Origin: an uncultured Sarcina sp.
GTDB lineage: Bacteria > Bacillota > Clostridia > Clostridiales > Clostridiaceae
DNA length: 64,000 nucleotides
Direction: 5' to 3'
Assembly (NCBI GenBank): GCA_963557775.1
Contig: CAUWDH010000020.1
Coordinates: 2,052-66,051, forward strand
Both the position numbers and the translations under genes were made by a program. Below the pieces are notes generated by a model. The model ran no database searches. It was not told where the DNA came from and saw only the letters and a list, made by a program, of their open reading frames with translations. This document shows, in pieces, positions 52,185 through 62,281 of the stretch (its first letter is position 1; the number at the start of each line of letters is the position of its first letter).

Positions 52185-55151
52185 ATGGAAAGTTATTTAG
52201 ATAATGTGATTTACTTAAATCTTTTAACTACAGGAAAATCTCTTGATAATGATTTTATTTTTAAAATAGATGGATTAAAAATTAATAATAATAATAAAAC
52301 ATTTTTTAGTAGCTTTATAAACATCCCTTCTGAAGTTCTCTATGTTAATAATAATTTTCTTAAGGAAGAAACACTAAAAAATTTAACTAAAGCACCATCA
52401 ATTGATGCTATTATAGATGATTTAAAAGCATTTATTTCAGATTTTCCTATAATTATTTTTAACAATCAAAACCAAGAGGAATTCTTAAAAAAACTTTTTT
52501 TATCTCATAATATTAAATTTAATAATACTATATTAGATTGTTTTGAATTATTTATGCTTCTAGAACCATGGCATAACGATTATTCACTAGAAAATCTTTT
52601 CTTAAAAAAATCATATAAAGAAAAGTTATTAGAAGATATTTCTTCTGAAGACTTACTTTTTTTATTTAATTCATTTTTAAAAGAAAATGATATTGGTGAT
52701 TTTATCAGTCATTATGGGGTTTATTTAAAGAATTGGAACTTTTATAATTACTTAGTTAATTTCAATATTTCAGAAGAAATGTTTAAAGATAAATTGCATA
52801 AAGTTACCGATTTTTATGAAGAACCTAATAAAATATTAAAACTAAAAGAAAACTGTGAAGAAATATTAAAAGACCCTAAGGGATTTTCTTCTTTGAATAA
52901 TAAATTTAAATTTAGACAAGGACAATATGATGTTATGAAAACAGTTAGAAGCTCCTTAGAAAAAAACTTGATTTCTATTATGGAAGCTCCAACTGGTACT
53001 GGAAAAAGTATTGCTTATTTATTACCAGCTATAACAAAAGCCTACTATAAAGGACAAAAAATATTTATTTCAACAAATACTAAAGAGCTTCAACGACAAC
53101 TTATACATAAAGATATTCCCTTTTTATTGAGAAGCTTTAACTTAAATTCTAAAGTTGATATTATAAATATAAAAGGAAAATCTAATTATCTTTGTATGGA
53201 TCTTATTCAGTCTATTTTAAATGATAATATCTTTAACAATACTAAATCTTTAAAAGAAAATATGGCTCTTGTTTACTTGCATAGATATTGTTACAAAGGA
53301 AAAGCCGGTGATAAAGAAGAAATAACTTCTGAAGCTGAAAATCATTTAAACCTTAATAGTATAATCAAACATTGTCTTTGTGATTCAGATGGCTGTAATA
53401 TCAAAACTTGTCCCTATGAATGTTATTATAAAAATACAGTTGAAGCTCTTAAAACAAGTACTATTGTTATAGTAAACCATTCTCTATTATTAAAATGGCC
53501 TTATGATAGTACTATTGAAAATGTAATTATAGATGAAGCTCATAATTTAAGTGATGCAATTTTTGATGCTTATGCCGCAATACTTAACTCTAGTGAATTA
53601 AAATCTTTATTACTAGAAATATTAGATTATAAAAATAAAAAGGGTTACTTAAATTATATATGGAAGTATACTCCTAATAGGACTATGAATTTTAGGGAAC
53701 TAGTGAGAGATAAAATAGATTTATGTTTCTTAACTATAGATAGAATAAGTTATTTAGTTTCTAAAGAACAAAAGGAATCTTATGATTTAGATATTAGTTT
53801 TTCAAAAGAAAAATTCTTAAGTTATGGAAAAGTAGTTCATGAACTAAAGGTTTTAAAGGAAGATTTAATTGCTTTTTATAAACCTCTAAATTCTTTTATT
53901 GATGCTAATAATCTTGATAATAGTAAAACGAGAAATTTAGGAGAAATATTTATAAAAAAAGTTGACCGTATCAAGGAAATAATTGATTTTATAGGTATAT
54001 TCACTACTGTAGAGCAAGATGAAAATAAATGCTATGGATTTTTCATAGAAAAAAACAAAAAGTTTTGGGAATGCTATATAAAAGATTTAAATTCATCTCT
54101 TATTTTCTTTGAAAGATTTTTAAATAACTTAAAAAGTTGTAGTTTTCTTTCTGCAACTTTAAAAAATAATAATACTTATAAATCATTTAAAAATTCTCTT
54201 GCTATAGATAAAGCAAATACTAGTTTCTTAAAGGAATTAGAAAATATCCCTCAAAGCTTTGATTTAAAAAAACGTTCTATTATTTATAATCCAATTGATT
54301 GTCCTAAATATTTCGAACCTGGTTTTATAGATTTTATGATTTCTAGCACTATAGAAATCCTTAAAAACTCTAACTGTAATATATTAGTTTTATTTACTAG
54401 TAAAAAGCGATTAATTGAATTCAAAAATAAAATTTTACCTTTTGCAATTGCTAATAAAATAAACCTTTTTGAAAGAAAACAAGATATAAAAAAATTATCA
54501 TTAAAAGGTTCTAGAAGTTTACTCTTAGGATCTAAAGGATTTTTTGAAGGAATAGATATTCCTGGAGATTTATTAAATATTGTACTTATTGATAAAATGC
54601 CTAATATAAATCCATACAATCCACTTTTTGAAAAATTTATAGAAAATGGATTTGCATTTAATACTATCAATACTCCTAGAGCTACAATTTCATTTAAACA
54701 ATGCTTTGGAAGGTTAATAAGAACTGAATTTGATTATGGATATTTTATAATATTTGATAAATGTAATCAAAATACTATTTTAAATAATGTATCAAAAGAA
54801 TATAAAGGAGTAAAAGCAATATCTGCTCCAATCAATAATTTATTAAAGGATATACCTGTGCGATTTAAGTATTGGAATTCATTAAATATAGAATTAGTGA
54901 TAAGTTCAACAATTAAGGAACTTGAAGAATTTCTTAAAACTCATGCTAAAGGTATCTACGGCAATAATGCTAATCTTGAATTAGCACTAAATGATTTTTA
55001 TGAAGAAAAATTTCAAGAACTTAACCTTAAAAAGAGATTTTCCATCTCTACTAAGAATAAAAAACTAAAATTTATATATGAAGATAATTCATACTTAGAT
55101 TTAAAAAATAAAATTTTAATAATAAAAGTAATTTCTTTAGTATTTTCCTAA
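52185..55151 (+). CDS. dinG: DinG/XPD-family Fe-S DNA helicase with a degenerate N-terminal DnaQ-like exonuclease domain
   Basis: Walker A MEAPTGTGKS, DEAH box VIIDEAHNL, and a Cys cluster NYLCMD / CLCDSDGCNIKTCPYEC. The N-terminus reads VIYLNLLTTG in place of the DxE ExoI motif. Confidence 0.8.
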   Translation: MESYLDNVIYLNLLTTGKSLDNDFIFKIDGLKINNNNKTFFSSFINIPSEVLYVNNNFLKEETLKNLTKAPSIDAIIDDLKAFISDFPIIIFNNQNQEEFLKKLFLSHNIKFNNTILDCFELFMLLEPWHNDYSLENLFLKKSYKEKLLEDISSEDLLFLFNSFLKENDIGDFISHYGVYLKNWNFYNYLVNFNISEEMFKDKLHKVTDFYEEPNKILKLKENCEEILKDPKGFSSLNNKFKFRQGQYDVMKTVRSSLEKNLISIMEAPTGTGKSIAYLLPAITKAYYKGQKIFISTNTKELQRQLIHKDIPFLLRSFNLNSKVDIINIKGKSNYLCMDLIQSILNDNIFNNTKSLKENMALVYLHRYCYKGKAGDKEEITSEAENHLNLNSIIKHCLCDSDGCNIKTCPYECYYKNTVEALKTSTIVIVNHSLLLKWPYDSTIENVIIDEAHNLSDAIFDAYAAILNSSELKSLLLEILDYKNKKGYLNYIWKYTPNRTMNFRELVRDKIDLCFLTIDRISYLVSKEQKESYDLDISFSKEKFLSYGKVVHELKVLKEDLIAFYKPLNSFIDANNLDNSKTRNLGEIFIKKVDRIKEIIDFIGIFTTVEQDENKCYGFFIEKNKKFWECYIKDLNSSLIFFERFLNNLKSCSFLSATLKNNNTYKSFKNSLAIDKANTSFLKELENIPQSFDLKKRSIIYNPIDCPKYFEPGFIDFMISSTIEILKNSNCNILVLFTSKKRLIEFKNKILPFAIANKINLFERKQDIKKLSLKGSRSLLLGSKGFFEGIDIPGDLLNIVLIDKMPNINPYNPLFEKFIENGFAFNTINTPRATISFKQCFGRLIRTEFDYGYFIIFDKCNQNTILNNVSKEYKGVKAISAPINNLLKDIPVRFKYWNSLNIELVISSTIKELEEFLKTHAKGIYGNNANLELALNDFYEEKFQELNLKKRFSISTKNKKLKFIYEDNSYLDLKNKILIIKVISLVFS

Positions 55152-55181
55152 AGTTATAATTACATTTCAAAAGGCTATATA

Positions 55182-55237
55182 GATGATACTTCTATATTTA
55201 TTTACATGAACCTCATCTATATAGCCTATTTAAAATT
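55182..55237. terminator. Bidirectional terminator between convergent dinG and the CBS gene
   Basis: 15-bp arms AGGCTATATAGATGA (55182-55196) and TCATCTATATAGCCT (55223-55237). Confidence 0.7.
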
Positions 55238-55715: not shown

Positions 55716-56624
55716 TTATTTATTTTGCATTATTCTTTTAAATTTATATGCAAAATTCATATAGTCTATATCATCTAATGAACTAATTATGTTTTTATAA
55801 GTAATTTCTCCTGTAAGAGTTTTCTTCACTATTATTTCTTGTAAAAGTTTATTATTACATTTAGGACAGTTCCCCATTGATAAAAATCTCCAATTAAATA
55901 ATGCTAAAGGATATTCAATATCCACATCATTAATACATTTTGGACACTTAAAATCAACATCTATATCATTAGCATTATAATTCTTTAAATCTTTAACTCT
56001 TATAGATGGCATATTATAAACATCATCTACAATATAGTTTTTAACTATCTTTCCATTATATAGACGTTTAAATACATCTGCTGCATAATTAGCATCATTT
56101 AAAGCATCATGTAACTTTTTTTTATCTAGTTTTATCTTAAGCTCCTCTAATGCACTTTTAAGTCCCAAAGCTTTTTTATGTCCTAACATTTTTGTGCAGT
56201 AATCTTGTATATCTAAATATCTTTTTATCCATTGAATACTTTTATAATCATGATAATTAGAATTAGAAATAATCTCTACTATATCATCTGTAGCCCAAGA
56301 GCATATAATATTATCCTCTTCCACAAAAGCTTCTAATCCATCCATAGCATCTTCAAAACTAATTCCAGCTCTAAGCTGTTCCTCTTTTATACCTGTTATT
56401 TCTGTTATTTTTGGATTTAACACATTAAATATGCTAGGTTTAATATATGCTTTATACTCACCTGTTTTTTTCATAAATTTATCTAATTTAACAGCTCCAA
56501 TTTCTATTATTTCATTTTGAACGGTAAGCTGTCTTAAATAACTATATTCATGATAAATATTTGGAAAATATCTAGTAATATTCTGCATATTATTAAATTC
56601 CAAATCTATTATTATAAATCCCAT
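55716..56624 (-). CDS. DEDDh 3'-5' exonuclease (KapD/ERI-like) with a C-terminal CPxC...CPxC zinc ribbon
   Basis: ExoI IIIDLEFNN, ExoII WATDDIVEI and ExoIII HDALNDANYAA are all intact. The C-terminus carries FKCPKC...GNCPKC. I prefer ATG 56624 with a GAGGGG SD. Confidence 0.75.
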   Translation of the reverse strand: MGFIIIDLEFNNMQNITRYFPNIYHEYSYLRQLTVQNEIIEIGAVKLDKFMKKTGEYKAYIKPSIFNVLNPKITEITGIKEEQLRAGISFEDAMDGLEAFVEEDNIICSWATDDIVEIISNSNYHDYKSIQWIKRYLDIQDYCTKMLGHKKALGLKSALEELKIKLDKKKLHDALNDANYAADVFKRLYNGKIVKNYIVDDVYNMPSIRVKDLKNYNANDIDVDFKCPKCINDVDIEYPLALFNWRFLSMGNCPKCNNKLLQEIIVKKTLTGEITYKNIISSLDDIDYMNFAYKFKRIMQNK

Positions 56625-56687
56625 TTCTAAAATCCCCTCACTAGTTGCAAAGAACATATTGAATTATATTAAGAAACTTCATTTTTA

Positions 56688-57503
56688 CTAATTAGTTTTA
56701 TTTTTTAAAATCCCTAATACTATACCTAATATATTACTCTCTTTCCCCTTTAATTTTATTGGCTCATATTTTGCATTTGCTGGCATTAATAACGGTTCTT
56801 CTGAATTTAAGTTTAATGTCTTTAAAGTTGCACTACCATCTATATCAACAGCTACAATTTCATTATGATACGCAGAATTTTGAGACTTTATTATAACAAA
56901 ATCTCCATTATTAATGTTTTTTTCTATCATACTATCCCCTTTTACATGTAGCATAAACAAATTTTTATTTTTTCCTACAAAATAACTAGGAATATTAAAA
57001 GTTCCCTCTTTTATATCATTAATTAATATAGGATTTCCAGCTGCAATATCACTATATACTGGAATACCTATTAAATCATCTTCTATAATATTATCGTTTC
57101 CATTCTTATTAACTATAACTTCTTTTAAAGTATTTCCATTGTCTACTTCAAAGCTTAATACTCTTCCTTTATTTAAATCAATATAGTCATATTGTTCTAT
57201 GAAAGATAAATTCTTTTCTTTCTTGTTATTAAACTTATTTTTTAATATAAAGTTTTTTCCCTTAGTGTCTCCTACTATGTTGCTTATAGATTTTCCACTA
57301 TAGCTCCAATGACTTTTATTAATTTCCTCACCTTTATTTATAATCAATATAAAAGATCCATGCTTTTCATTTTTTAAGTTTTTCATAAATATTAATTGAG
57401 CTCTACTAAGTTTCTCACAATCATCTATTATTATATGTGAATATTTTTCTTCATACTTTTTGCTATAATTTATGGCAAAAATCGTATCATCATATTTATC
57501 CAT
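56688..57503 (-). CDS. Helicase motif-II fragment fused to an intact LexA-type S24 autopeptidase domain (3' part of a split gene)
   Basis: HIIIDDCEKL resembles UvrD motif II (aa 23-32). The C-terminal half has DIAAGNPI (Ala155-Gly156 cleavage site), GDSM (Ser191) and ATLKTL (Lys228). The Ser-Lys spacing of 37 matches LexA. Confidence 0.7.
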   Translation of the reverse strand: MDKYDDTIFAINYSKKYEEKYSHIIIDDCEKLSRAQLIFMKNLKNEKHGSFILIINKGEEINKSHWSYSGKSISNIVGDTKGKNFILKNKFNNKKEKNLSFIEQYDYIDLNKGRVLSFEVDNGNTLKEVIVNKNGNDNIIEDDLIGIPVYSDIAAGNPILINDIKEGTFNIPSYFVGKNKNLFMLHVKGDSMIEKNINNGDFVIIKSQNSAYHNEIVAVDIDGSATLKTLNLNSEEPLLMPANAKYEPIKLKGKESNILGIVLGILKNKTN

Positions 57504-57508
57504 ATAGC

Positions 57509-58129
57509 CTAACTTATGAGTTTCATAAGAATACCTATCTCTTTTATACTATAAATTTGATTTCTACTCTCAGAGTGCTTTCTTAAAGATTTTCCTCTTC
57601 CCATTCTATTCACATTGAAATATTCATCCCTTGTAAAGTAATTAGATTTTATCCATTCTATTTCTTCTAACAAGTAATTCATATCTATATTCTTTATAAA
57701 TTTAGTAAGTTTATTATCCTTACTAAATTCTTCATATACAGACTGTAATATTTCTATTTTTTTATTTAAATCTAAATAGACTAACTTTAACTTATTTTCT
57801 CTTATGTACGATTTTACATAAGAATCTATTAGTTGATTAATATTTGAGAATTCTATTTGTTCTTTGTTTTTTATTGAAAATAAAGAATAAAAATTATGTT
57901 CCATTTCAAGTTTAGCTTTTGAATAAATACTTTTTGCCTTTTTACTATGCTCTTCTCCACTATGAACTAATAAAACTTTATCTTTCTCATATATGCAATA
58001 ATTTCTTTCTAAATCAACTGCCTTATAAATAGAAACTGTGGTCTTTCCTGTACCTATAGCACCTTTTAAAATTTGTATACCTGTCTTTTTACTTTTTAAA
58101 AATTTATCTTGTCCAACTTGAAACTCCAC
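57509..58129 (-). CDS. UvrD/Rep-like helicase N-terminal P-loop fragment (5' part of the split gene)
   Basis: GTG start. Walker A is GAIGTGKTT (aa 23-31). The RMGRGKSLRK...RNQIYSIKE region is typical of UvrD-like domain 1A/1B. It ends at TAG 57511..57509, 5 nt before the next ATG and in another frame. Confidence 0.65.
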   Translation of the reverse strand: MEFQVGQDKFLKSKKTGIQILKGAIGTGKTTVSIYKAVDLERNYCIYEKDKVLLVHSGEEHSKKAKSIYSKAKLEMEHNFYSLFSIKNKEQIEFSNINQLIDSYVKSYIRENKLKLVYLDLNKKIEILQSVYEEFSKDNKLTKFIKNIDMNYLLEEIEWIKSNYFTRDEYFNVNRMGRGKSLRKHSESRNQIYSIKEIGILMKLIS

Positions 58130-58228
58130 TATATTTATTCTCCTTTCTCTTAATAATATATCTCTTATTGTACTCTTAGTGTTATACTTAACATTATAAT
58201 TAATGAAAATTTCAAAAATAATTAATTT

Positions 58229-58357
58229 TTATCTAATAGCTAGATTTCTAATATTCCTACCTTCTACAATTAAGAAATAAATACTATAAAACTTCTAGAT
58301 AAACCTTACTAAACATTCAAATAGGTGAACCCCTACTTGAATTAAATTTACGTTTAT
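58229..58357 (-). repeat. Dispersed intergenic element, copy E (full length)
   Basis: TTATCTAATAGCTAGATTTCTAATATTCC ... CTTCTAGATAAACC ... ATTCAAATAGGTGAACCCCTACTTGAAT ... CGTTTAT. The 3' hairpin stem differs from copy C, but pairing is kept, with a G-U pair in the minus-strand sense. Confidence 0.7.
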
Positions 58358-58365
58358 ATTGGAAA

Positions 58366-58408
58366 AACTCCAAAGAAATCTAAAAAACCTTAGTTATCTT
58401 TGGAGTTC
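58366..58408 (-). terminator. Terminator after the DUF262/DUF1524 gene
   Basis: AACTCCAAAG (58366-58375) pairs with CTTTGGAGTT (58399-58408), with TTTTT on the minus strand. Confidence 0.7.
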
Positions 58409-58466
58409 CCTTTATATAATTTTATATTAGTTTTCTTTTATGGTCAATAAACTGAACCTTTATTTA

Positions 58467-60203
58467 CTACATTTTAGTCCATAATTCTAAGGCTCTTGAA
58501 ACTAAACTTTCTTGTCTAGCTTCTAATACTTCCATATTCCAATCCTTATTTGAGAATATTTCTTTACTTATTTCAAATTCACTTTTCTTGCTTAAGTATT
58601 GTTCAACTTTCTCTAAGAAAGGCTTATTATTAACTCTTGTATTCTTAGCTCCTGTAATTAAAACAAGATTTCCAAATTTATTTACCCAATTTCTTCTTTG
58701 GTCAGCTTTAAAATTACTTACCCAATATAAATCCTTTGAATTTCTTGGCAGTATGTGCTCTATCATTAGCTTATTACTAATTTCTAGTTCTTTTCCTTCT
58801 ATTAATTCAAGTTCCAATCTTAAGAAAACATACTTTGGAACTGTCATTCTACCTTTACTATAAAAATCTATATCATTTAATGCATTTTTAAAGTAATTTA
58901 CTGTTCTATCTAAATCACCAATAAATACATCATGGTTCTTTAGTTCTTCTAAAGAAGATACTTCATCTATGGCTTCTATTATCTTATATACTCTATCTAA
59001 TCTTTCAGCAAATGCATTACCATTTACCCAATCAATAACAACTCTCTTCTCTAAGATTTTTAAGAATTCTACAGTTGCTTCGTCATTATTAAACTTCTCT
59101 ATAAATCTTATTAAAGCTGCTATCCACTCATCATATGGAAGTAACTCTTTCATTATGTTTACTAAATTTTTATAATATACAGCTTTATTTTTATCAGTAA
59201 CATTTACAGTTCCATCAACAACATAAGTGCTATATATTTCTTTTAAACTATGCATATGATTTATAAATTCTTCACCTATATATTCTTCTTTATTTAAGAA
59301 TATATTTTTAGCAAATTCATCATATAAGCTTTCATCTGCCTTTGCTTTTAAAATCATAGCTCTCATATAGCCTATAAGTTTTTCAATTCCATCTTTACCT
59401 AAGTCTATTTCATCATTTTCCCATATTTCAGTGAAATCTTTTCTTCTCTCTATATTAATAACTCTTAAGTTCTCACTCTTAAGTAAATCTGAATTTGTTA
59501 AAGGTAAACCTCTAGAGTTTATTACATTGAATAATCTAAATGCTGATTCAAAAGTATTAGTTGTTATAACTACTAATACTACCTTTTGAAGAAGGTATTT
59601 TATAAATGCATTTAATTTTTCTTCTAAAACATTTCCTTCTTCATCAGAAAAGCTTGTCTTAAAAATCTTAATAGCATTTATCATATTTTTCTTAGCTTCA
59701 CTTAATTCTTCTTCATCTAAATTTGAAATTAAATTAGTTCCACCTTCTGTTAAAATATATTCCTTAAAGAAATCACTTTCTTTTCCTCTTACCTTAACTC
59801 TTATACTTTCTTTAATTCCCATAAGCTCATTTGCTTCTTGATATATTAAAGAACCTAATACTTTTTTATATTCTTCGCTAGCTATCATATCTCTAATAGT
59901 AGCAATTAACATTATTATTGATGTAAGTCTTTGTTGTCCATCTATAACATCATAACGTCCCCAACCATCATCTTTATATTCTTTTGAACATAAAACTATG
60001 CTTCCTATAAAATAAGGTTCGTAGCTTTCAAACTCTCTATCTTTATTTAAAGTAATTGATAATTCTATATCATCTACTAACTGCTTTAAATTTTCCTCAG
60101 TCCATGAATATGCTCTTTGATAATCTGGTATTTCAAAAACAAACTTAGGGCTTAAAAGGTCTTTTATATAATATTCTTTAGCTTTTATATTTTCAGTAAA
60201 CAA
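58467..60203 (-). CDS. DUF262 (ParB/NTPase-like) plus DUF1524 (His-Me nuclease) protein, GmrSD-like type IV restriction candidate
   Basis: N-terminal IPDYQRAYSW and DGQQRLTS motifs. C-terminal IEHILPRN...KFGNLVLITGAKNTRVNNKPF. The likely start is TTG 60203, 7 nt after GGGAGG; the tracked ORF starts at TTG 60218. Confidence 0.8.
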   Translation of the reverse strand: MFTENIKAKEYYIKDLLSPKFVFEIPDYQRAYSWTEENLKQLVDDIELSITLNKDREFESYEPYFIGSIVLCSKEYKDDGWGRYDVIDGQQRLTSIIMLIATIRDMIASEEYKKVLGSLIYQEANELMGIKESIRVKVRGKESDFFKEYILTEGGTNLISNLDEEELSEAKKNMINAIKIFKTSFSDEEGNVLEEKLNAFIKYLLQKVVLVVITTNTFESAFRLFNVINSRGLPLTNSDLLKSENLRVINIERRKDFTEIWENDEIDLGKDGIEKLIGYMRAMILKAKADESLYDEFAKNIFLNKEEYIGEEFINHMHSLKEIYSTYVVDGTVNVTDKNKAVYYKNLVNIMKELLPYDEWIAALIRFIEKFNNDEATVEFLKILEKRVVIDWVNGNAFAERLDRVYKIIEAIDEVSSLEELKNHDVFIGDLDRTVNYFKNALNDIDFYSKGRMTVPKYVFLRLELELIEGKELEISNKLMIEHILPRNSKDLYWVSNFKADQRRNWVNKFGNLVLITGAKNTRVNNKPFLEKVEQYLSKKSEFEISKEIFSNKDWNMEVLEARQESLVSRALELWTKM

Positions 60204-60390
60204 TTTTTTTCCTCCCAATCTACACCTATTAGCAAAATTATCTAAATTAAACAGTGGGTATTACCTCTGAATAAAATTTTATACTTTTCCATATCTACCT
60301 ACATATGTAAATATAAGACTTAAAAATAGACTTTTAATTATTTTCTATAGAAAATATTTTAATAGGACACATTGTCCTTATATTTACAAC

Positions 60391-60490: not shown

Positions 60491-62281
60491 TTATATATCT
60501 ATACCAGCCATTTTCATTAAATATCTAGCATTTCTTGTAGTTGATACACCATCTCTTAACTTATAGTCAAATTCTAATTTATTATTTTTATAATATTCTC
60601 TAAAATTATAATTTACTATTTCTTTTGTTCTTTCTTCTAAAGTACACAGCTCTAAGTCATGAGTGGAGACAAGTCCCATACTTTTTCCTTTTAATAATTG
60701 ATTAATTAAAACTCTAGCTCCTTCATGTCTATCAATAGAATTAGTTCCCTTAAATATTTCATCTAATAAAAATAAGACCTTTTTATCATTTTTCACTGCT
60801 TCTACTACCATTTTTACTCTAAGTATTTCTGCATAAAAAGAAGAAATATTTTCATCTAAATTATCACCCGTTCTCATACAGCTATATATATCCATTATTG
60901 GTAATGAAAATTCTTTTGCTTTAACAGGTAATCCTAAGTAGGATAAAAATGAATTAAATCCTATAGTTCTTAAAAAAGTACTCTTACCAGACATATTTGA
61001 ACCAGTTATAAGTGCTACTCTTTTTTCTTTATCTAAATTAAAATCATTAGATATGGCTACACCTTTAATCATAGGATGACTTATTTCTTTTCCCTTTATT
61101 GCAAAGTTTTCTACTATAATAGGTAAAACATATCCATCTCTTTCTCTAGCTAAAATTGATAAGCTTTCTAAGGCTTCAAATTCTCCAAAGCTTTCTAAAT
61201 ACCCTCTAATTTTTTTCCCTTCTGATTTTCTCCACTTTTCTGTTTTATATAAAATTTGAAAATCCCAATATAACATACCATTTAAAACTATATAAAATAT
61301 ATTCCTTCTATCATAAAGCCAGGATGTAATGTTATATAACTTTTTTATTGATAGGCTAGCAGGTTCTTTATCTTTTAAATTATCTTTAATATTATTTAAC
61401 TTTTTAGTCTTAAAATTAGAATTCTCTATTAATTCTAATGCTTTAACATAACCTCCCATACTTCTTTTTATATTTTCAAATAATTCAAGATTTTTATTTA
61501 TATCTTTATTTCCTAATTTTAATATCCCTAAATTAGCCATAAATAATATTAAAAAATATAAAAAACTCATTTTCCCAATTATCATAAAAATAAAGGCTAT
61601 TATTGTTAAAATAGGACCTAATATTCTTATTAAATTTAGGGGATTTCCTAGAAAGCTATAATTTTCATCTTCACAAAATTTTATAAAATCTTCTTCATTA
61701 AACCCTTTTTTATTATCTTTAATTAAAGCTGAATATATATTTTCTCTAAGTTCTATATTGTTAGATAATTCTTTTAGAACTTTTTGATTTTCAATAATCT
61801 CTTCTTTAGATGTTTTTCCACTATTACATAAAATATCTTTTAATTTTTTTCTCCCATAAGAACTTCCAGTTATATTAATCCATTGAAAAAAAGAAGCATT
61901 TCCAAATATATTTAAATCATTTATAAAAGGATGATTTAAATCTAAAAACTCTTCTCCTTTATCCTCAAAACTTCTCCACTCACCATTTAATCTACATATA
62001 TCATCTTTATTGAGTTTAATAGAACGTTCCTCAAACACTTTCTTATAAATTATTTGTTCGTGAATTTTAGCTAATACAAAAAATACTATTAGTATTATTA
62101 ATTCTATAACAAAGAAAATGCTATTAAAATTTTTCTTGTATCCATAGTAAATTACTCCTATAAAACAAATTCCTAAAATTAATCTAATAATACTAATTAA
62201 ATTATATCTTTTATTAAGAATATTAAGCCTTTCTTCCTTTTCTCTTATTCTGTTGTTGTACGAAACTTCTTCATTAATCAT
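60491..62281 (-). CDS. Membrane-anchored MutS-domain-V ATPase (MutS-related; no mismatch-binding domain, no Smr)
   Basis: About four TM helices in the N-terminal 260 aa. The C-terminal ABC-type ATPase has ITGSNMSGKSTFLRTIG, LLDEIFKGTNSIDR and STHDLEL. Confidence 0.75.
   Translation of the reverse strand: MINEEVSYNNRIREKEERLNILNKRYNLISIIRLILGICFIGVIYYGYKKNFNSIFFVIELIILIVFFVLAKIHEQIIYKKVFEERSIKLNKDDICRLNGEWRSFEDKGEEFLDLNHPFINDLNIFGNASFFQWINITGSSYGRKKLKDILCNSGKTSKEEIIENQKVLKELSNNIELRENIYSALIKDNKKGFNEEDFIKFCEDENYSFLGNPLNLIRILGPILTIIAFIFMIIGKMSFLYFLILFMANLGILKLGNKDINKNLELFENIKRSMGGYVKALELIENSNFKTKKLNNIKDNLKDKEPASLSIKKLYNITSWLYDRRNIFYIVLNGMLYWDFQILYKTEKWRKSEGKKIRGYLESFGEFEALESLSILARERDGYVLPIIVENFAIKGKEISHPMIKGVAISNDFNLDKEKRVALITGSNMSGKSTFLRTIGFNSFLSYLGLPVKAKEFSLPIMDIYSCMRTGDNLDENISSFYAEILRVKMVVEAVKNDKKVLFLLDEIFKGTNSIDRHEGARVLINQLLKGKSMGLVSTHDLELCTLEERTKEIVNYNFREYYKNNKLEFDYKLRDGVSTTRNARYLMKMAGIDI

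What the first reader, a model, noticed from the sequence alone, without database searches (positions are those of the whole stretch)
56688..58129. LexA-type self-cleaving S24 module attached to a UvrD-like P-loop domain instead of a DNA-binding HTH
Joined conceptually, the two adjacent ORFs give a ~480-aa protein. It has Walker A GAIGTGKTT, and about 200 aa later a motif-II-like HIIIDDCEKL; that spacing matches a UvrD/Rep 1A/1B domain. No second RecA-like domain follows. Instead the C-terminal ~130 aa keep every element of a RecA*-stimulated autoprotease. These are the Ala-Gly scissile site in DIAAGNPI, the Ser nucleophile in GDSM and the general-base Lys in ATLKTL. The Ser-Lys spacing is 37 residues and Gly-to-Ser is 35, essentially as in LexA/UmuD. 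S24 modules normally gate an HTH repressor or UmuD. One that would release or inactivate a helicase-like ATPase after DNA damage is an architecture I do not recognise as described. The gene sits in an accessory patch beside a nuclease and a type IV restriction-like gene. That fits a damage- or phage-triggered switch.
Basis: partly seen in the sequence, partly recalled or inferred. Interest (0 to 1): 0.8.

Follow-up and report, generated by a model that had tools for sequence, protein, structure and literature searches.

The report
Broken pseudo-helicase fused to LexA-type autoprotease
The two ORFs are one frameshifted gene for an uncharacterised Clostridium protein that joins a motor-dead UvrD-type ATP-binding domain to a LexA-like self-cleaving domain; it descends from a larger helicase–nuclease–LexA-domain protein, which suggests DNA-damage-triggered self-cleavage can control enzymes as well as repressors.

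Summary
ORFs 57509..58129 and 56688..57503 (minus strand) are halves of one gene, split by a 2-nt AA insertion. Sister assemblies (99.95% identical DNA) carry the intact 479-aa allele.

The C-terminus is a LexA-type S24 domain, and the Ala-Gly site, Ser and Lys are invariant in 116 homologues. The N-terminal ~300 aa fold as UvrD/PcrA 1A/1B.

The N-terminal half is not a working helicase. Domain 2A and motifs III–VI are gone and the motif II Glu is not conserved. The Q motif, Walker A, a W-x2-K-G-R remnant and a basic loop persist, with dN/dS about 0.2.

The family occurs in at least 30 Clostridiaceae species, is auto-annotated "LexA", and has no conserved neighbours, no SOS box and no phage copies. 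It is nested within an ~810-aa family (UvrD helicase + PD-(D/E)xK HSDR_N_2 + S24) in which all catalytic motifs are invariant.

My best reading is a RecA*-triggered self-cleaving switch on an ATP/ssDNA-binding pseudo-helicase. Cleavage and function are inferred, not shown. I found no literature on this fusion. The window copy is probably a pseudogene, and the defence-island argument is weak.

The parts
56688..58129 (-). Whole frameshifted gene. The intact allele is 479 aa: UvrD-type 1A/1B pseudo-helicase + beta-hairpin linker + LexA-type S24 domain.
   Evidence: ORFs. One-base repair gives a 480-aa ORF. P0001/P0241 is the intact 479-aa allele on sister contigs.
57509..58129 (-). ORF1, 206 aa. 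Residues 1-195 are identical to the intact allele, followed by an 11-aa out-of-frame tail and a stop. Contains the Q motif, Walker A, domain 1B and the basic loop.
   Evidence: P0244 is identical to ORF1; compare P0241.
56688..57503 (-). ORF2, 271 aa, starting at an internal Met (residue 208 of the intact protein). Contains the Walker B remnant, the motif III tail, the hairpin linker and the S24 domain.
   Evidence: P0243 is identical to ORF2.
57542..57545 (-). Frameshift site. The window has an A4 run (AGTATAAAAGAG on the minus strand) where intact alleles have A2 (AGTATAAGAG), a 2-nt insertion.
   Evidence: This is the only indel in 15.3 kb of 99.95%-identical sequence.
58037..58063 (-). Walker A / motif I, GAIGTGKTT. 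G23, G28 and K29 are invariant and position 30 is always T or S in 118 sequences. Q7 (Q motif) is present in 113 of 118.
57563..57607 (-). Conserved basic loop RMGRGKSLRKHSESR at the 1B/1A junction. R175 and R189 are invariant; G177, R178 and S186 are at least 96% conserved. The loop is shared with the long form.
57408..57437 (-). Degenerate motif II, HIIIDDCEKL. The Asp is kept in 112 of 118. The catalytic-Glu position is variable (D59, K20, E19, N16).
57291..57308 (-). Motif III tail, WSYSGK (family consensus W-x2-K-G-R/K; W in 113 of 118). The D-x-x-Q-S-I-Y part of motif III is lost.
57078..57200 (-). Four-stranded beta-hairpin linker (Y-x-Y-x-D...F-x-x-D). It is conserved in the short, long and minimal forms and lies immediately upstream of the S24 domain.
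56718..57062 (-). LexA-type Peptidase_S24 domain.
   Evidence: Pfam E=7e-27. TIGR00498 lexA scores 102.5 bits. PDB LexA chains E=2e-32. Foldseek versus LexA C-terminal domain: TM 0.86, rmsd 2.0. 40% identity to a Firmicute LexA.
57036..57041 (-). Predicted scissile Ala-Gly: A155-G156 of ORF2, A363-G364 of the intact protein.
   Evidence: I361, A362, A363, G364 and P366 are invariant in 116 sequences. Coordinates.
56931..56933 (-). Predicted nucleophile Ser (S191 of ORF2, S399 of the intact protein).
   Evidence: Invariant. Coordinates.
56820..56822 (-). Predicted general-base Lys (K228 of ORF2, K436 of the intact protein).
   Evidence: Invariant. Coordinates.

Best explanation
The locus is a frameshift-disrupted copy of a stand-alone Clostridiaceae gene. 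The intact 479-aa product has three parts:
- A motor-dead UvrD/PcrA-type 1A/1B module. It keeps its nucleotide-binding pocket (Q motif, Walker A, Walker B Asp) and probable ssDNA-contact features (motif III Trp/Arg remnant, basic loop). It has lost domain 2A, motifs III-VI and the catalytic Glu.
- A small beta-hairpin linker.
- A LexA-type S24 domain with an intact Ala-Gly site and Ser/Lys dyad.

The gene arose once, by internal deletion of about 330 residues, from an ~810-aa protein that combines a UvrD-like helicase, an HSDR_N_2 PD-(D/E)xK nuclease-like domain and an S24 domain.

Proposed mechanism (inferred, not shown):
1. The protein dimerises through S24, as LexA and UmuD do.
2. RecA-ssDNA filaments formed after DNA damage or during foreign-DNA replication stimulate intramolecular cleavage at Ala363-Gly364.
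3. The cut separates the ATP/ssDNA-binding pseudo-helicase from its dimerisation domain.
4. That switches the module's binding to DNA or to a partner. The direction could be LexA-like loss of avidity and turnover, or UmuD-like activation.

In the window strain the 2-nt insertion cuts the P-loop domain in two, so this copy is most likely non-functional.
For: Shown:
- S24 assignment, with invariant cleavage site and dyad.
- The S24 domain is closer to LexA than to UmuD or lambda CI: 102 versus 72 bits in NCBIfam, and PDB E=2e-32 versus 1e-22 versus 4e-4.
- The AF2 model is confident (pLDDT 86). Residues 1 to ~310 match UvrD/Rep/PcrA and AddB/AdnB.
- Walker A G23/G28/K29 are invariant, Q7 is 96% and D235 is 95% conserved, while the Glu position is variable.
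- The motif III tail and the basic loop are retained.
- Alignment to long forms shows a clean deletion running from motif IV through 2A and HSDR_N_2.
- Short forms are monophyletic and nested within long forms on an S24 tree.
- In unsaturated pairs, dN/dS is 0.18-0.28 for the N-domain and 0.04-0.06 for S24.
- The intact allele is on record in the same species.
- Long forms keep all helicase, nuclease and S24 catalytic residues invariant.

From established knowledge:
- Characterised LexA-type C-terminal domains (LexA, UmuD, CI, SetR) self-cleave on RecA*.
- AddB and RecC are precedents for inactivated SF1 helicase domains reused as DNA-recognition scaffolds. AddB keeps a Walker A site.
- PcrA W259 and R260 in motif III contact ssDNA.
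Against: - No experiment shows cleavage, RecA dependence, ATP binding or DNA binding.
- No conserved gene neighbour hints at a pathway.
- No SOS box lies upstream in any of 32 loci, so membership of the SOS regulon is not indicated.
- The N-domain evolves 4-5 times faster than S24 and the family shows progressive reduction: 705, 664, 648, 633, 579, ~480 and ~205 aa. That pattern is also compatible with the N-terminal part being on its way out.
- Interdomain geometry is uncertain (pTM 0.62).
- The direction of the switch, activation or inactivation, is unknown.
Confidence: 0.55

Rival explanations
1. The N-terminal pseudo-helicase is an evolutionary relic with little function of its own. The functional unit is the hairpin + S24 module. 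It might act as a RecA* binder or modulator, or as a heterodimer partner that titrates LexA or the long-form enzyme.
For: - There is a reductive series from ~810 aa down to ~205-aa hairpin+S24-only proteins.
- S24 is far more constrained than the N-domain.
- Helicase motifs are lost.
- Short and long forms co-occur at species level in C. estertheticum and C. tagluense.
Against: - N-domain dN/dS of 0.18-0.28 is well below neutral.
- The invariant or near-invariant Walker A, Q motif, E156, W159-I160-K161, Y170, R175, R189 and H231 across about 35-45%-identical proteins are hard to explain without function.
- Length is stable at 470-500 aa across at least 30 species.
Confidence: 0.2
2. One reading: the protein is a damage- or phage-triggered defence switch, working with the neighbouring GmrSD type IV restriction enzyme and the DEDDh exonuclease.
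For: - GmrSD lies upstream (Pfam E=6e-41 and 7e-30; PADLOC E=1e-273) and a DEDDh exonuclease lies 30 nt downstream with no terminator between.
- The exonuclease is also adjacent in L013 and nearby in L035.
- Several long-form relatives sit beside WYL-WCX regulators, NERD proteins, and PLD or ResIII helicase-nucleases.
Against: - GmrSD adjacency is seen only in this species.
- 27 of 32 short-form loci have unrelated housekeeping neighbours: aminotransferase/nusA, phosphoesterase, histidine kinase, MurA.
- GC content is uniform.
- None of 24 viral-contig hits carries the N-domain.
- There is no PADLOC model match beyond a marginal Walker A hit.
- One long form sits among housekeeping genes.
Confidence: 0.12
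3. It is a working, ATP-hydrolysing UvrD-like enzyme (helicase or translocase) gated by the S24 domain.
For: Walker A is invariant, the fold is UvrD 1A/1B, and the Walker B Asp is present.
Against: - No 2A domain, so no arginine finger and no second ssDNA-binding lobe.
- Motifs III (D-x-x-Q), IV, V and VI are absent.
- The catalytic Glu position is D, K, E or N across the family.
- SF1 translocation needs both RecA-like lobes (established knowledge).
Confidence: 0.05
4. As database annotation has it: the protein is a LexA paralogue acting as a DNA-binding transcriptional repressor.
For: Sources name it 'transcriptional repressor LexA' or 'LexA family protein'. The S24 domain is LexA-type.
Against: - No HTH or LexA_DNA_bind hit, even at E<=10.
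- The N-terminus is a P-loop fold.
- It scores below the TIGR00498 cutoff, 102.5 versus 110.95.
- No SOS box or other LexA operator lies upstream.
Confidence: 0.03
5. The split itself is an assembly artefact, and the window strain really has an intact gene.
For: - The indel lies in a short A-run.
- Other fragmentary alleles in the same 90% cluster (P0250-P0253) carry several frameshifts, typical of noisy assemblies.
Against: - It is a 2-nt change, not a 1-nt change.
- It is the only indel in 15.3 kb versus L001.
- The identical 206-aa and 271-aa products are recorded from three contigs in NCBI, Logan and ENA. These may derive from the same reads.
Confidence: 0.3

Closest known systems
LexA (TIGR00498) / UmuD: S24 RecA*-stimulated autoproteases
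   Same: The C-terminal ~125 aa are collinear with the LexA C-terminal domain. Similarity: 40% identity to a Firmicute LexA, Foldseek TM 0.86. The VAAG-x-P-type cleavage loop is present with the same Ser-Lys spacing (37) and Gly-Ser spacing (35 here, 34 in E. coli LexA). Dimerisation and RecA*-triggered self-cleavage are expected by homology.
   Different: There is no winged-HTH DNA-binding domain. The N-terminal cargo is a 300-aa P-loop pseudo-helicase plus a beta-hairpin. It scores below the NCBIfam cutoffs for LexA (102.5 versus 110.95) and UmuD (72.4 versus 110). No SOS operator lies upstream.
UvrD / PcrA / Rep SF1A helicases (PF00580)
   Same: It has the 1A/1B fold (Foldseek E about 3e-11), the Q motif, Walker A, the Walker B Asp and the Trp/Arg tail of motif III.
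   Different: It lacks 2A/2B, motifs Ia, III (DxxQ), IV, V and VI, and the catalytic Glu. It cannot be a translocase. The window sequence scores below Pfam thresholds for PF00580; only some family members have a recorded hit.
Uncharacterised ~810-aa 'UvrD helicase + HSDR_N_2 + Peptidase_S24' proteins of Clostridia and Fusobacteriota (e.g. Niameybacter/Holtiella P0121, Ilyobacter WP_013389202.1)
   Same: They are homologous across the N-domain (about 30% identity), the hairpin linker and S24 (about 44% identity). The short forms nest inside this clade. They share the EIxWIK and RxGR motifs.
   Different: The long form has intact DExQD, motifs III-VI, 2A and a PD-(D/E)xK triad, all invariant. 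The window family has deleted or degraded all of these. Long forms resemble mini AddA/RecB/AdnB helicase-nucleases (Foldseek).
AddB / RecC: inactivated SF1 helicase scaffolds
   Same: These are degenerate helicase folds retained for DNA recognition rather than motor function. AddB keeps a Walker A site. AddB and AdnB appear among the Foldseek hits.
   Different: AddB and RecC keep both RecA-like lobes and act in a heterodimer or heterotrimer with an active motor. No such partner is known here, and neither of them has a protease domain.
GajB / 'NERD+UvrD' (PADLOC C3a187) defence helicases
   Same: These are the best PADLOC matches of the long form's helicase core (E=6e-38 and 5e-34). They share the compact UvrD-like core without a large 2B domain.
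   Different: The similarity is family-level only. There is no GajA partner and no NERD fusion. The short form matches only at Walker A (E=1e-3).

Membership tests
LexA (TIGR00498 equivalog) | S24 catalytic domain with Ser-Lys dyad and Ala-Gly cleavage site | tested here: met
   Pfam PF00717 E=7e-27. A363-G364, S399 and K436 are invariant in 116 sequences. Foldseek versus LexA C-terminal domain gives TM 0.86.
LexA (TIGR00498 equivalog) | N-terminal winged-HTH DNA-binding domain (LexA_DNA_bind) | tested here: not met
   No HTH family is found at E<=10. The N-terminus folds as UvrD 1A/1B.
LexA (TIGR00498 equivalog) | Score above the curated whole-protein cutoff | tested here: not met
   102.5 bits versus a cutoff of 110.95. 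The match covers only model positions 50-201.
LexA (TIGR00498 equivalog) | RecA*-stimulated autocleavage | not testable with these tools
   Inferred from homology only. Needs an in vitro cleavage assay.
LexA (TIGR00498 equivalog) | Autoregulation through an SOS box (Firmicute GAAC-N4-GTTC) | tested here: not met
   None is present in 58130..58466. None of 32 short-form loci has one within 350 nt upstream.
UmuD (NF007621) | Score above cutoff; short N-terminal arm; umuC partner | tested here: not met
   72.4 bits versus a cutoff of 110. The N-terminal extension is 360 aa. No Y-family polymerase gene is adjacent.
UvrD/Rep/PcrA SF1A helicase | 1A/1B fold with Walker A and Q motif | tested here: met
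   Foldseek E=3e-11 to UvrD, Rep and PcrA over about 310 columns. G23, G28 and K29 are invariant and Q7 is present in 113 of 118.
UvrD/Rep/PcrA SF1A helicase | Motif II DExx catalytic Glu | tested here: not met
   The window has DDCE. The family position is D59, K20, E19, N16.
UvrD/Rep/PcrA SF1A helicase | Second RecA-like domain 2A with motifs IV-VI | tested here: not met
   Absent in the AF2 model: the sequence after residue 300 is all beta. It is deleted relative to long forms.
Helicase-HSDR_N_2-S24 long-form family (uncharacterised) | Homology across the N-domain, hairpin linker and S24, and phylogenetic nesting | tested here: met
   tblastn and phmmer matches to both ends. Alignment. The S24 NJ tree places the short-form clade within the long-form clade.
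Helicase-HSDR_N_2-S24 long-form family (uncharacterised) | Presence of 2A (UvrD_C) and the HSDR_N_2 PD-(D/E)xK domain | tested here: not met
   Pfam finds neither in the joined window protein. About 330 residues are missing. The window protein is therefore a derived, reduced offshoot, not a full member.
Known anti-phage defence systems (PADLOC v2) | Significant match to a defence-system model, or conserved defence-island context | tested here: not met
   The only hit is a marginal Walker A match (E=1.3e-3). Neighbourhoods are not conserved.

The most novel reading that the evidence does not exclude
LexA-type S24 domains act as RecA*-triggered (or self-sensed, DNA-triggered) proteolytic latches on enzymes, not only on repressors and UmuD.
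- In the ~810-aa form, cleavage would release or activate an AddA/RecB-like helicase-nuclease. That would be a direct, transcription-independent SOS or anti-foreign-DNA effector.
- The Clostridium ~480-aa form would be its domesticated AddB-like, motor-dead derivative. It would serve as an ATP/ssDNA-binding sensor, a decoy, or a heterodimeric regulator.
Probability: 0.35. Interest if true: 0.8.

Novelty: new variant of a known kind. Interest (0 to 1): 0.6.

Why it matters
RecA*-stimulated S24 self-cleavage is known to control transcription (LexA, phage and ICE repressors) and translesion synthesis (UmuD). A conserved family in which the same latch is attached to a helicase-nuclease, and to a pseudo-helicase derived from it, would add a third kind of output to the SOS signal: direct post-translational control of DNA-processing machinery.

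The family is present in genetically tractable and medically or industrially relevant clostridia, including the C. sporogenes/botulinum group, C. beijerinckii and C. tertium. The predicted cleavage is simple to test.

There is also a practical annotation point. Hundreds of database entries called "transcriptional repressor LexA" in Clostridia have no DNA-binding domain and should not be counted as LexA in SOS-regulon reconstructions.

Tried and rejected
- **SOS boxes.** I searched GAAC-N4-GTTC in the window and upstream of 32 homologues. None was found at the gene.
- **Conserved partner genes.** I clustered the ORFs of 32 short-form loci. No universal neighbour emerged. The DEDDh exonuclease is adjacent in only 2 loci and near in a third.
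- **Phage or plasmid carriage.** The viral-contig scan returned only S24-only repressor-like hits. No phage record covers more than 61% of the long form. One full-length long form lies on the Ilyobacter 962-kb replicon among housekeeping genes.
- **PADLOC.** The joined protein gave only a marginal Walker A hit.
- **Rfam.** Nothing credible across 55.0-60.5 kb.
- **Promoter and terminator scan.** Not above shuffled background, and no terminator between the gene and the exonuclease.
- **Hairpin linker as a LexA wing remnant.** The TIGR00498 match starts at model position 50, which suggested this. BLAST against a canonical LexA aligns only from the linker onward, so I dropped the idea.
- **Programmed -1 frameshifting at A-AAA-G.** I considered this to rescue the split. 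I rejected it as the design, because sister strains have an uninterrupted ORF with A2 at that site. Low-level slippage cannot be excluded.
- **Literature.** Seven full-text searches and three papers read found no description of a helicase-S24 fusion.
Full report
**What is in the window**

On the minus strand there are two ORFs. ORF1 (57509..58129, 206 aa) carries a Walker A motif, GAIGTGKTT. ORF2 (56688..57503, 271 aa) has Pfam Peptidase_S24 over its C-terminal 115 residues (E=7e-27).

The two ORFs are in different reading frames. Adding one base in the A-run at 57542..57545 restores a single 480-aa frame.

Two sister contigs (L001, L002) are 99.95% identical to the window, over 15.3 kb and 9 kb. 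The single indel between them and the window is this site: the window reads AGTATAAAAGAG where they read AGTATAAGAG. Both encode an uninterrupted 479-aa protein.

Exact-sequence look-up shows two things. The intact allele (WP_412368626.1, 'LexA family protein [Clostridium sp.]') is on at least 11 contigs. The two split products, identical to the window ORFs, are on 3 contigs.

The window copy is a frameshifted allele. It is most likely a real strain-specific pseudogene, because the change is 2 nt and is the only indel in 15 kb. An assembly error cannot be ruled out.

**Fold and motif assignments**

- **S24 by sequence.** The joined protein matches Peptidase_S24 (E=2e-26). It matches NCBIfam LexA at 102.5 bits (cutoff 110.95, model positions 50-201) and UmuD at 72.4 bits (cutoff 110).
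- **S24 against solved structures.** A family profile hits LexA chains at E=2e-32, UmuD at about 1e-22 and lambda CI at about 4e-4.
- **AF2 model of the intact allele.** The model has mean pLDDT 86.
  - Residues 1 to ~310 superpose on UvrD, Rep and PcrA (Foldseek E about 3e-11), and also on AddB and AdnB.
  - Residues ~355-479 superpose on the LexA C-terminal domain (TM 0.86, rmsd 2.0 Å).
  - Between them lies a four-stranded beta-hairpin unit.
- **No second RecA-like domain.** None follows the first.
- **Identity to LexA.** The S24 part is 40% identical to a canonical Firmicute LexA.
- **Spacing.** Gly-to-Ser is 35 residues and Ser-to-Lys is 37.

**The family**

A word-indexed search found more than 110 full-length homologues of 440-540 aa. 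An exhaustive phmmer search of 1.84 billion representatives found 78 clusters at E<=1e-30. A scan of one genome per GTDB species found full-length copies in at least 30 Clostridiaceae species. These include C. tertium, C. celatum, C. disporicum, C. nigeriense, C. tepidum, C. sporogenes, C. beijerinckii, C. tagluense, C. bowmanii, C. collagenovorans and C. sulfidigenes.

Across 116-118 sequences:
- The cleavage loop I-A-A-G-x-P, Ser399 and Lys436 are invariant.
- Walker A G23, G28 and K29 are invariant, and position 30 is always T or S.
- Q7 is present in 113 of 118, and the Walker B Asp in 112 of 118.
- The position of the catalytic Glu is not conserved: D 59, K 20, E 19, N 16.

The tail of motif III (W-x2-K-G-R/K) and a basic loop (R175, G177, R178, R181, K184, S186, R189) are strongly conserved. 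In PcrA, the equivalent motif III Trp and Arg contact ssDNA (established knowledge).

In pairs with unsaturated dS, dN/dS is 0.18-0.28 for the N-domain and 0.04-0.06 for S24. Both parts are under purifying selection, the N-domain less strongly.

**Origin**

The genome scan also returned proteins of ~806-824 aa from Holtiella/Niameybacter and Lachnospiraceae. They match the query at both ends. Pfam gives their architecture as UvrD-helicase + UvrD_C + HSDR_N_2 + Peptidase_S24.

More than 100 such clusters exist across Clostridia: Heliomicrobium, Defluviitalea, Carboxydocella, Tepidanaerobacteraceae and many Clostridium species. One copy is in the fusobacterium Ilyobacter polytropus.

In 77 long forms the following are all invariant or nearly so:
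- Walker A, DExQD, and motifs III, IV, V and VI
- the PD-(D/E)xK triad D568/E584/K586
- the S24 Gly, Ser and Lys

The long-form AF2 model (pLDDT 84.7, pTM 0.76) resembles PcrA and UvrD first, then the helicase-nucleases AddA, AdnB and RecB.

Aligning long and short forms shows that the short form is the long form minus about 330 residues. The missing stretch runs from motif IV through 2A and HSDR_N_2. The hairpin linker and S24 are retained.

On an NJ tree of the S24 domain the short forms are monophyletic and nested within the long forms. Canonical LexAs fall outside.

Other architectures exist:
- Intermediates: helicase + S24 without HSDR_N_2 (664-705 aa), and forms with a partial or no recognisable 2A (579-648 aa)
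- Minimal ~205-aa hairpin+S24 proteins
- Relatives without S24: helicase + HSDR_N_2 (630-676 aa) and helicase alone (~500 aa)

By species name, C. estertheticum and C. tagluense have both a short and a long form.

**Context**

In the window species the gene lies between a GmrSD type IV restriction gene (337 nt upstream) and a DEDDh exonuclease (30 nt downstream, no terminator). A CBS-domain gene and a convergent DinG-like gene follow.

This arrangement is not conserved. In 32 short-form loci the neighbours vary by lineage: aminotransferase and the rimP-nusA-infB cluster, a YfcE-like phosphoesterase, a histidine kinase, MurA and others. The exonuclease is adjacent only in this species and in L013 (in the opposite order), and nearby in L035.

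Other context results:
- GC content is uniform.
- No SOS box precedes any of the 32 genes.
- No viral contig carries the fusion.

Long forms are more often found beside defence- or damage-type genes. Examples are WYL-WCX + GGDEF in two loci, NERD in two, and PLD or ResIII helicase-nucleases in three. This is not universal.

**Interpretation**

*Shown:*
- It is one gene, with a LexA-type S24 domain whose catalytic apparatus is intact.
- It has a UvrD 1A/1B-fold N-domain that has lost everything needed for translocation but keeps a nucleotide pocket and basic or aromatic surface features.
- The family is under purifying selection.
- It descends from a helicase-nuclease-S24 protein.
- It has no conserved partner.

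*Inferred:*
- Dimerisation through S24.
- RecA*-stimulated cleavage at Ala363-Gly364.
- ATP and ssDNA binding without turnover.
- A change of activity on separation of the two halves.

I cannot tell whether cleavage inactivates the protein (LexA-like) or activates it (UmuD-like), or what the target is. The main rival is that the N-domain is a decaying relic and only hairpin+S24 matters. It is weakened by the invariant Walker A site and by dN/dS of about 0.2, but it is not excluded. The defence-switch reading rests on one species' neighbourhood and is weak for the short form. It remains plausible for the long form.

**Novelty**

Seven full-text searches and three papers read gave no description of a helicase-S24 fusion. 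The proteins are in public databases under automatic names: 'transcriptional repressor LexA', 'S24 family peptidase', '3'-5' exonuclease'.

I rate this a new variant of a known kind. The known kind is the S24 self-cleaving switch. The new element is its cargo, a helicase-nuclease or a pseudo-helicase.

Interest is moderate to high (0.6). The architecture is surprising for SOS biology and directly testable. Against that, the function is unknown and the copy in this window is broken.

Noticed in passing
window 58467..60218 (-): A full-length GmrSD-type type IV restriction enzyme (Pfam GmrSD_N E=6e-41, GmrSD_C E=7e-30; PADLOC 'Orf5' PDLC02694 E=1e-273). It sits next to the fusion gene only in this species.
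   Followed up: partly
window 55716..56657 (-); also L013 and L035: A 313-aa DEDDh (RNase_T) exonuclease with a C-terminal Cys-rich, zinc-ribbon-like tail (CPKC...CPKC). It lies 30 nt downstream of the fusion gene here, immediately upstream of it in L013 (oral taxon 876), and four genes away in L035. This is a possible weak functional link, seen in 3 of 32 loci.
   Followed up: partly
window 52185..55151 (+): A 988-aa DinG-like helicase (Helicase_C_2, DEAD_2) with an N-terminal region that weakly matches a DEDDh exonuclease model. It matches PADLOC 'typeIV_DinG' at E=6e-74, but no CRISPR-type context was seen. It is probably the housekeeping Firmicute DinG.
   Followed up: no
window 60491..62281 (-): A 596-aa MutS-family protein with only the MutS_V ATPase domain recognised and hydrophobic N-terminal segments. 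It looks like a MutS2-like or membrane-associated paralogue.
   Followed up: no
L041 7911..8525; P0338: Minimal ~205-aa proteins made of a short N-terminal region, the family-specific beta-hairpin (YxYxxxD...FxxD) and an S24 domain, with no recognisable HTH. They appear to be the end-point of the reductive series.
   Followed up: partly
L086 9539..11361 and L042 9654..11451: In two unrelated long-form loci the helicase-nuclease-S24 gene is followed by the same pair: a WYL-WCX regulator and then a GGDEF diguanylate cyclase. In L086 a NERD-HRDC protein lies 10 nt upstream.
   Followed up: partly
cluster of P0001 (P0250-P0253): Other assemblies of the same species carry differently fragmented versions of this gene (112, 149, 213 and 321 aa, some with several frameshifts). 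This reflects either noisy long-read assemblies or recurrent decay of the gene in this species.
   Followed up: no
window 55163..55236: A hairpin-forming stretch between the convergent DinG-like and CBS-domain genes gives weak, sub-threshold miRNA-family hits in Rfam (E=0.15 and 0.7). It is most simply a bidirectional terminator.
   Followed up: no
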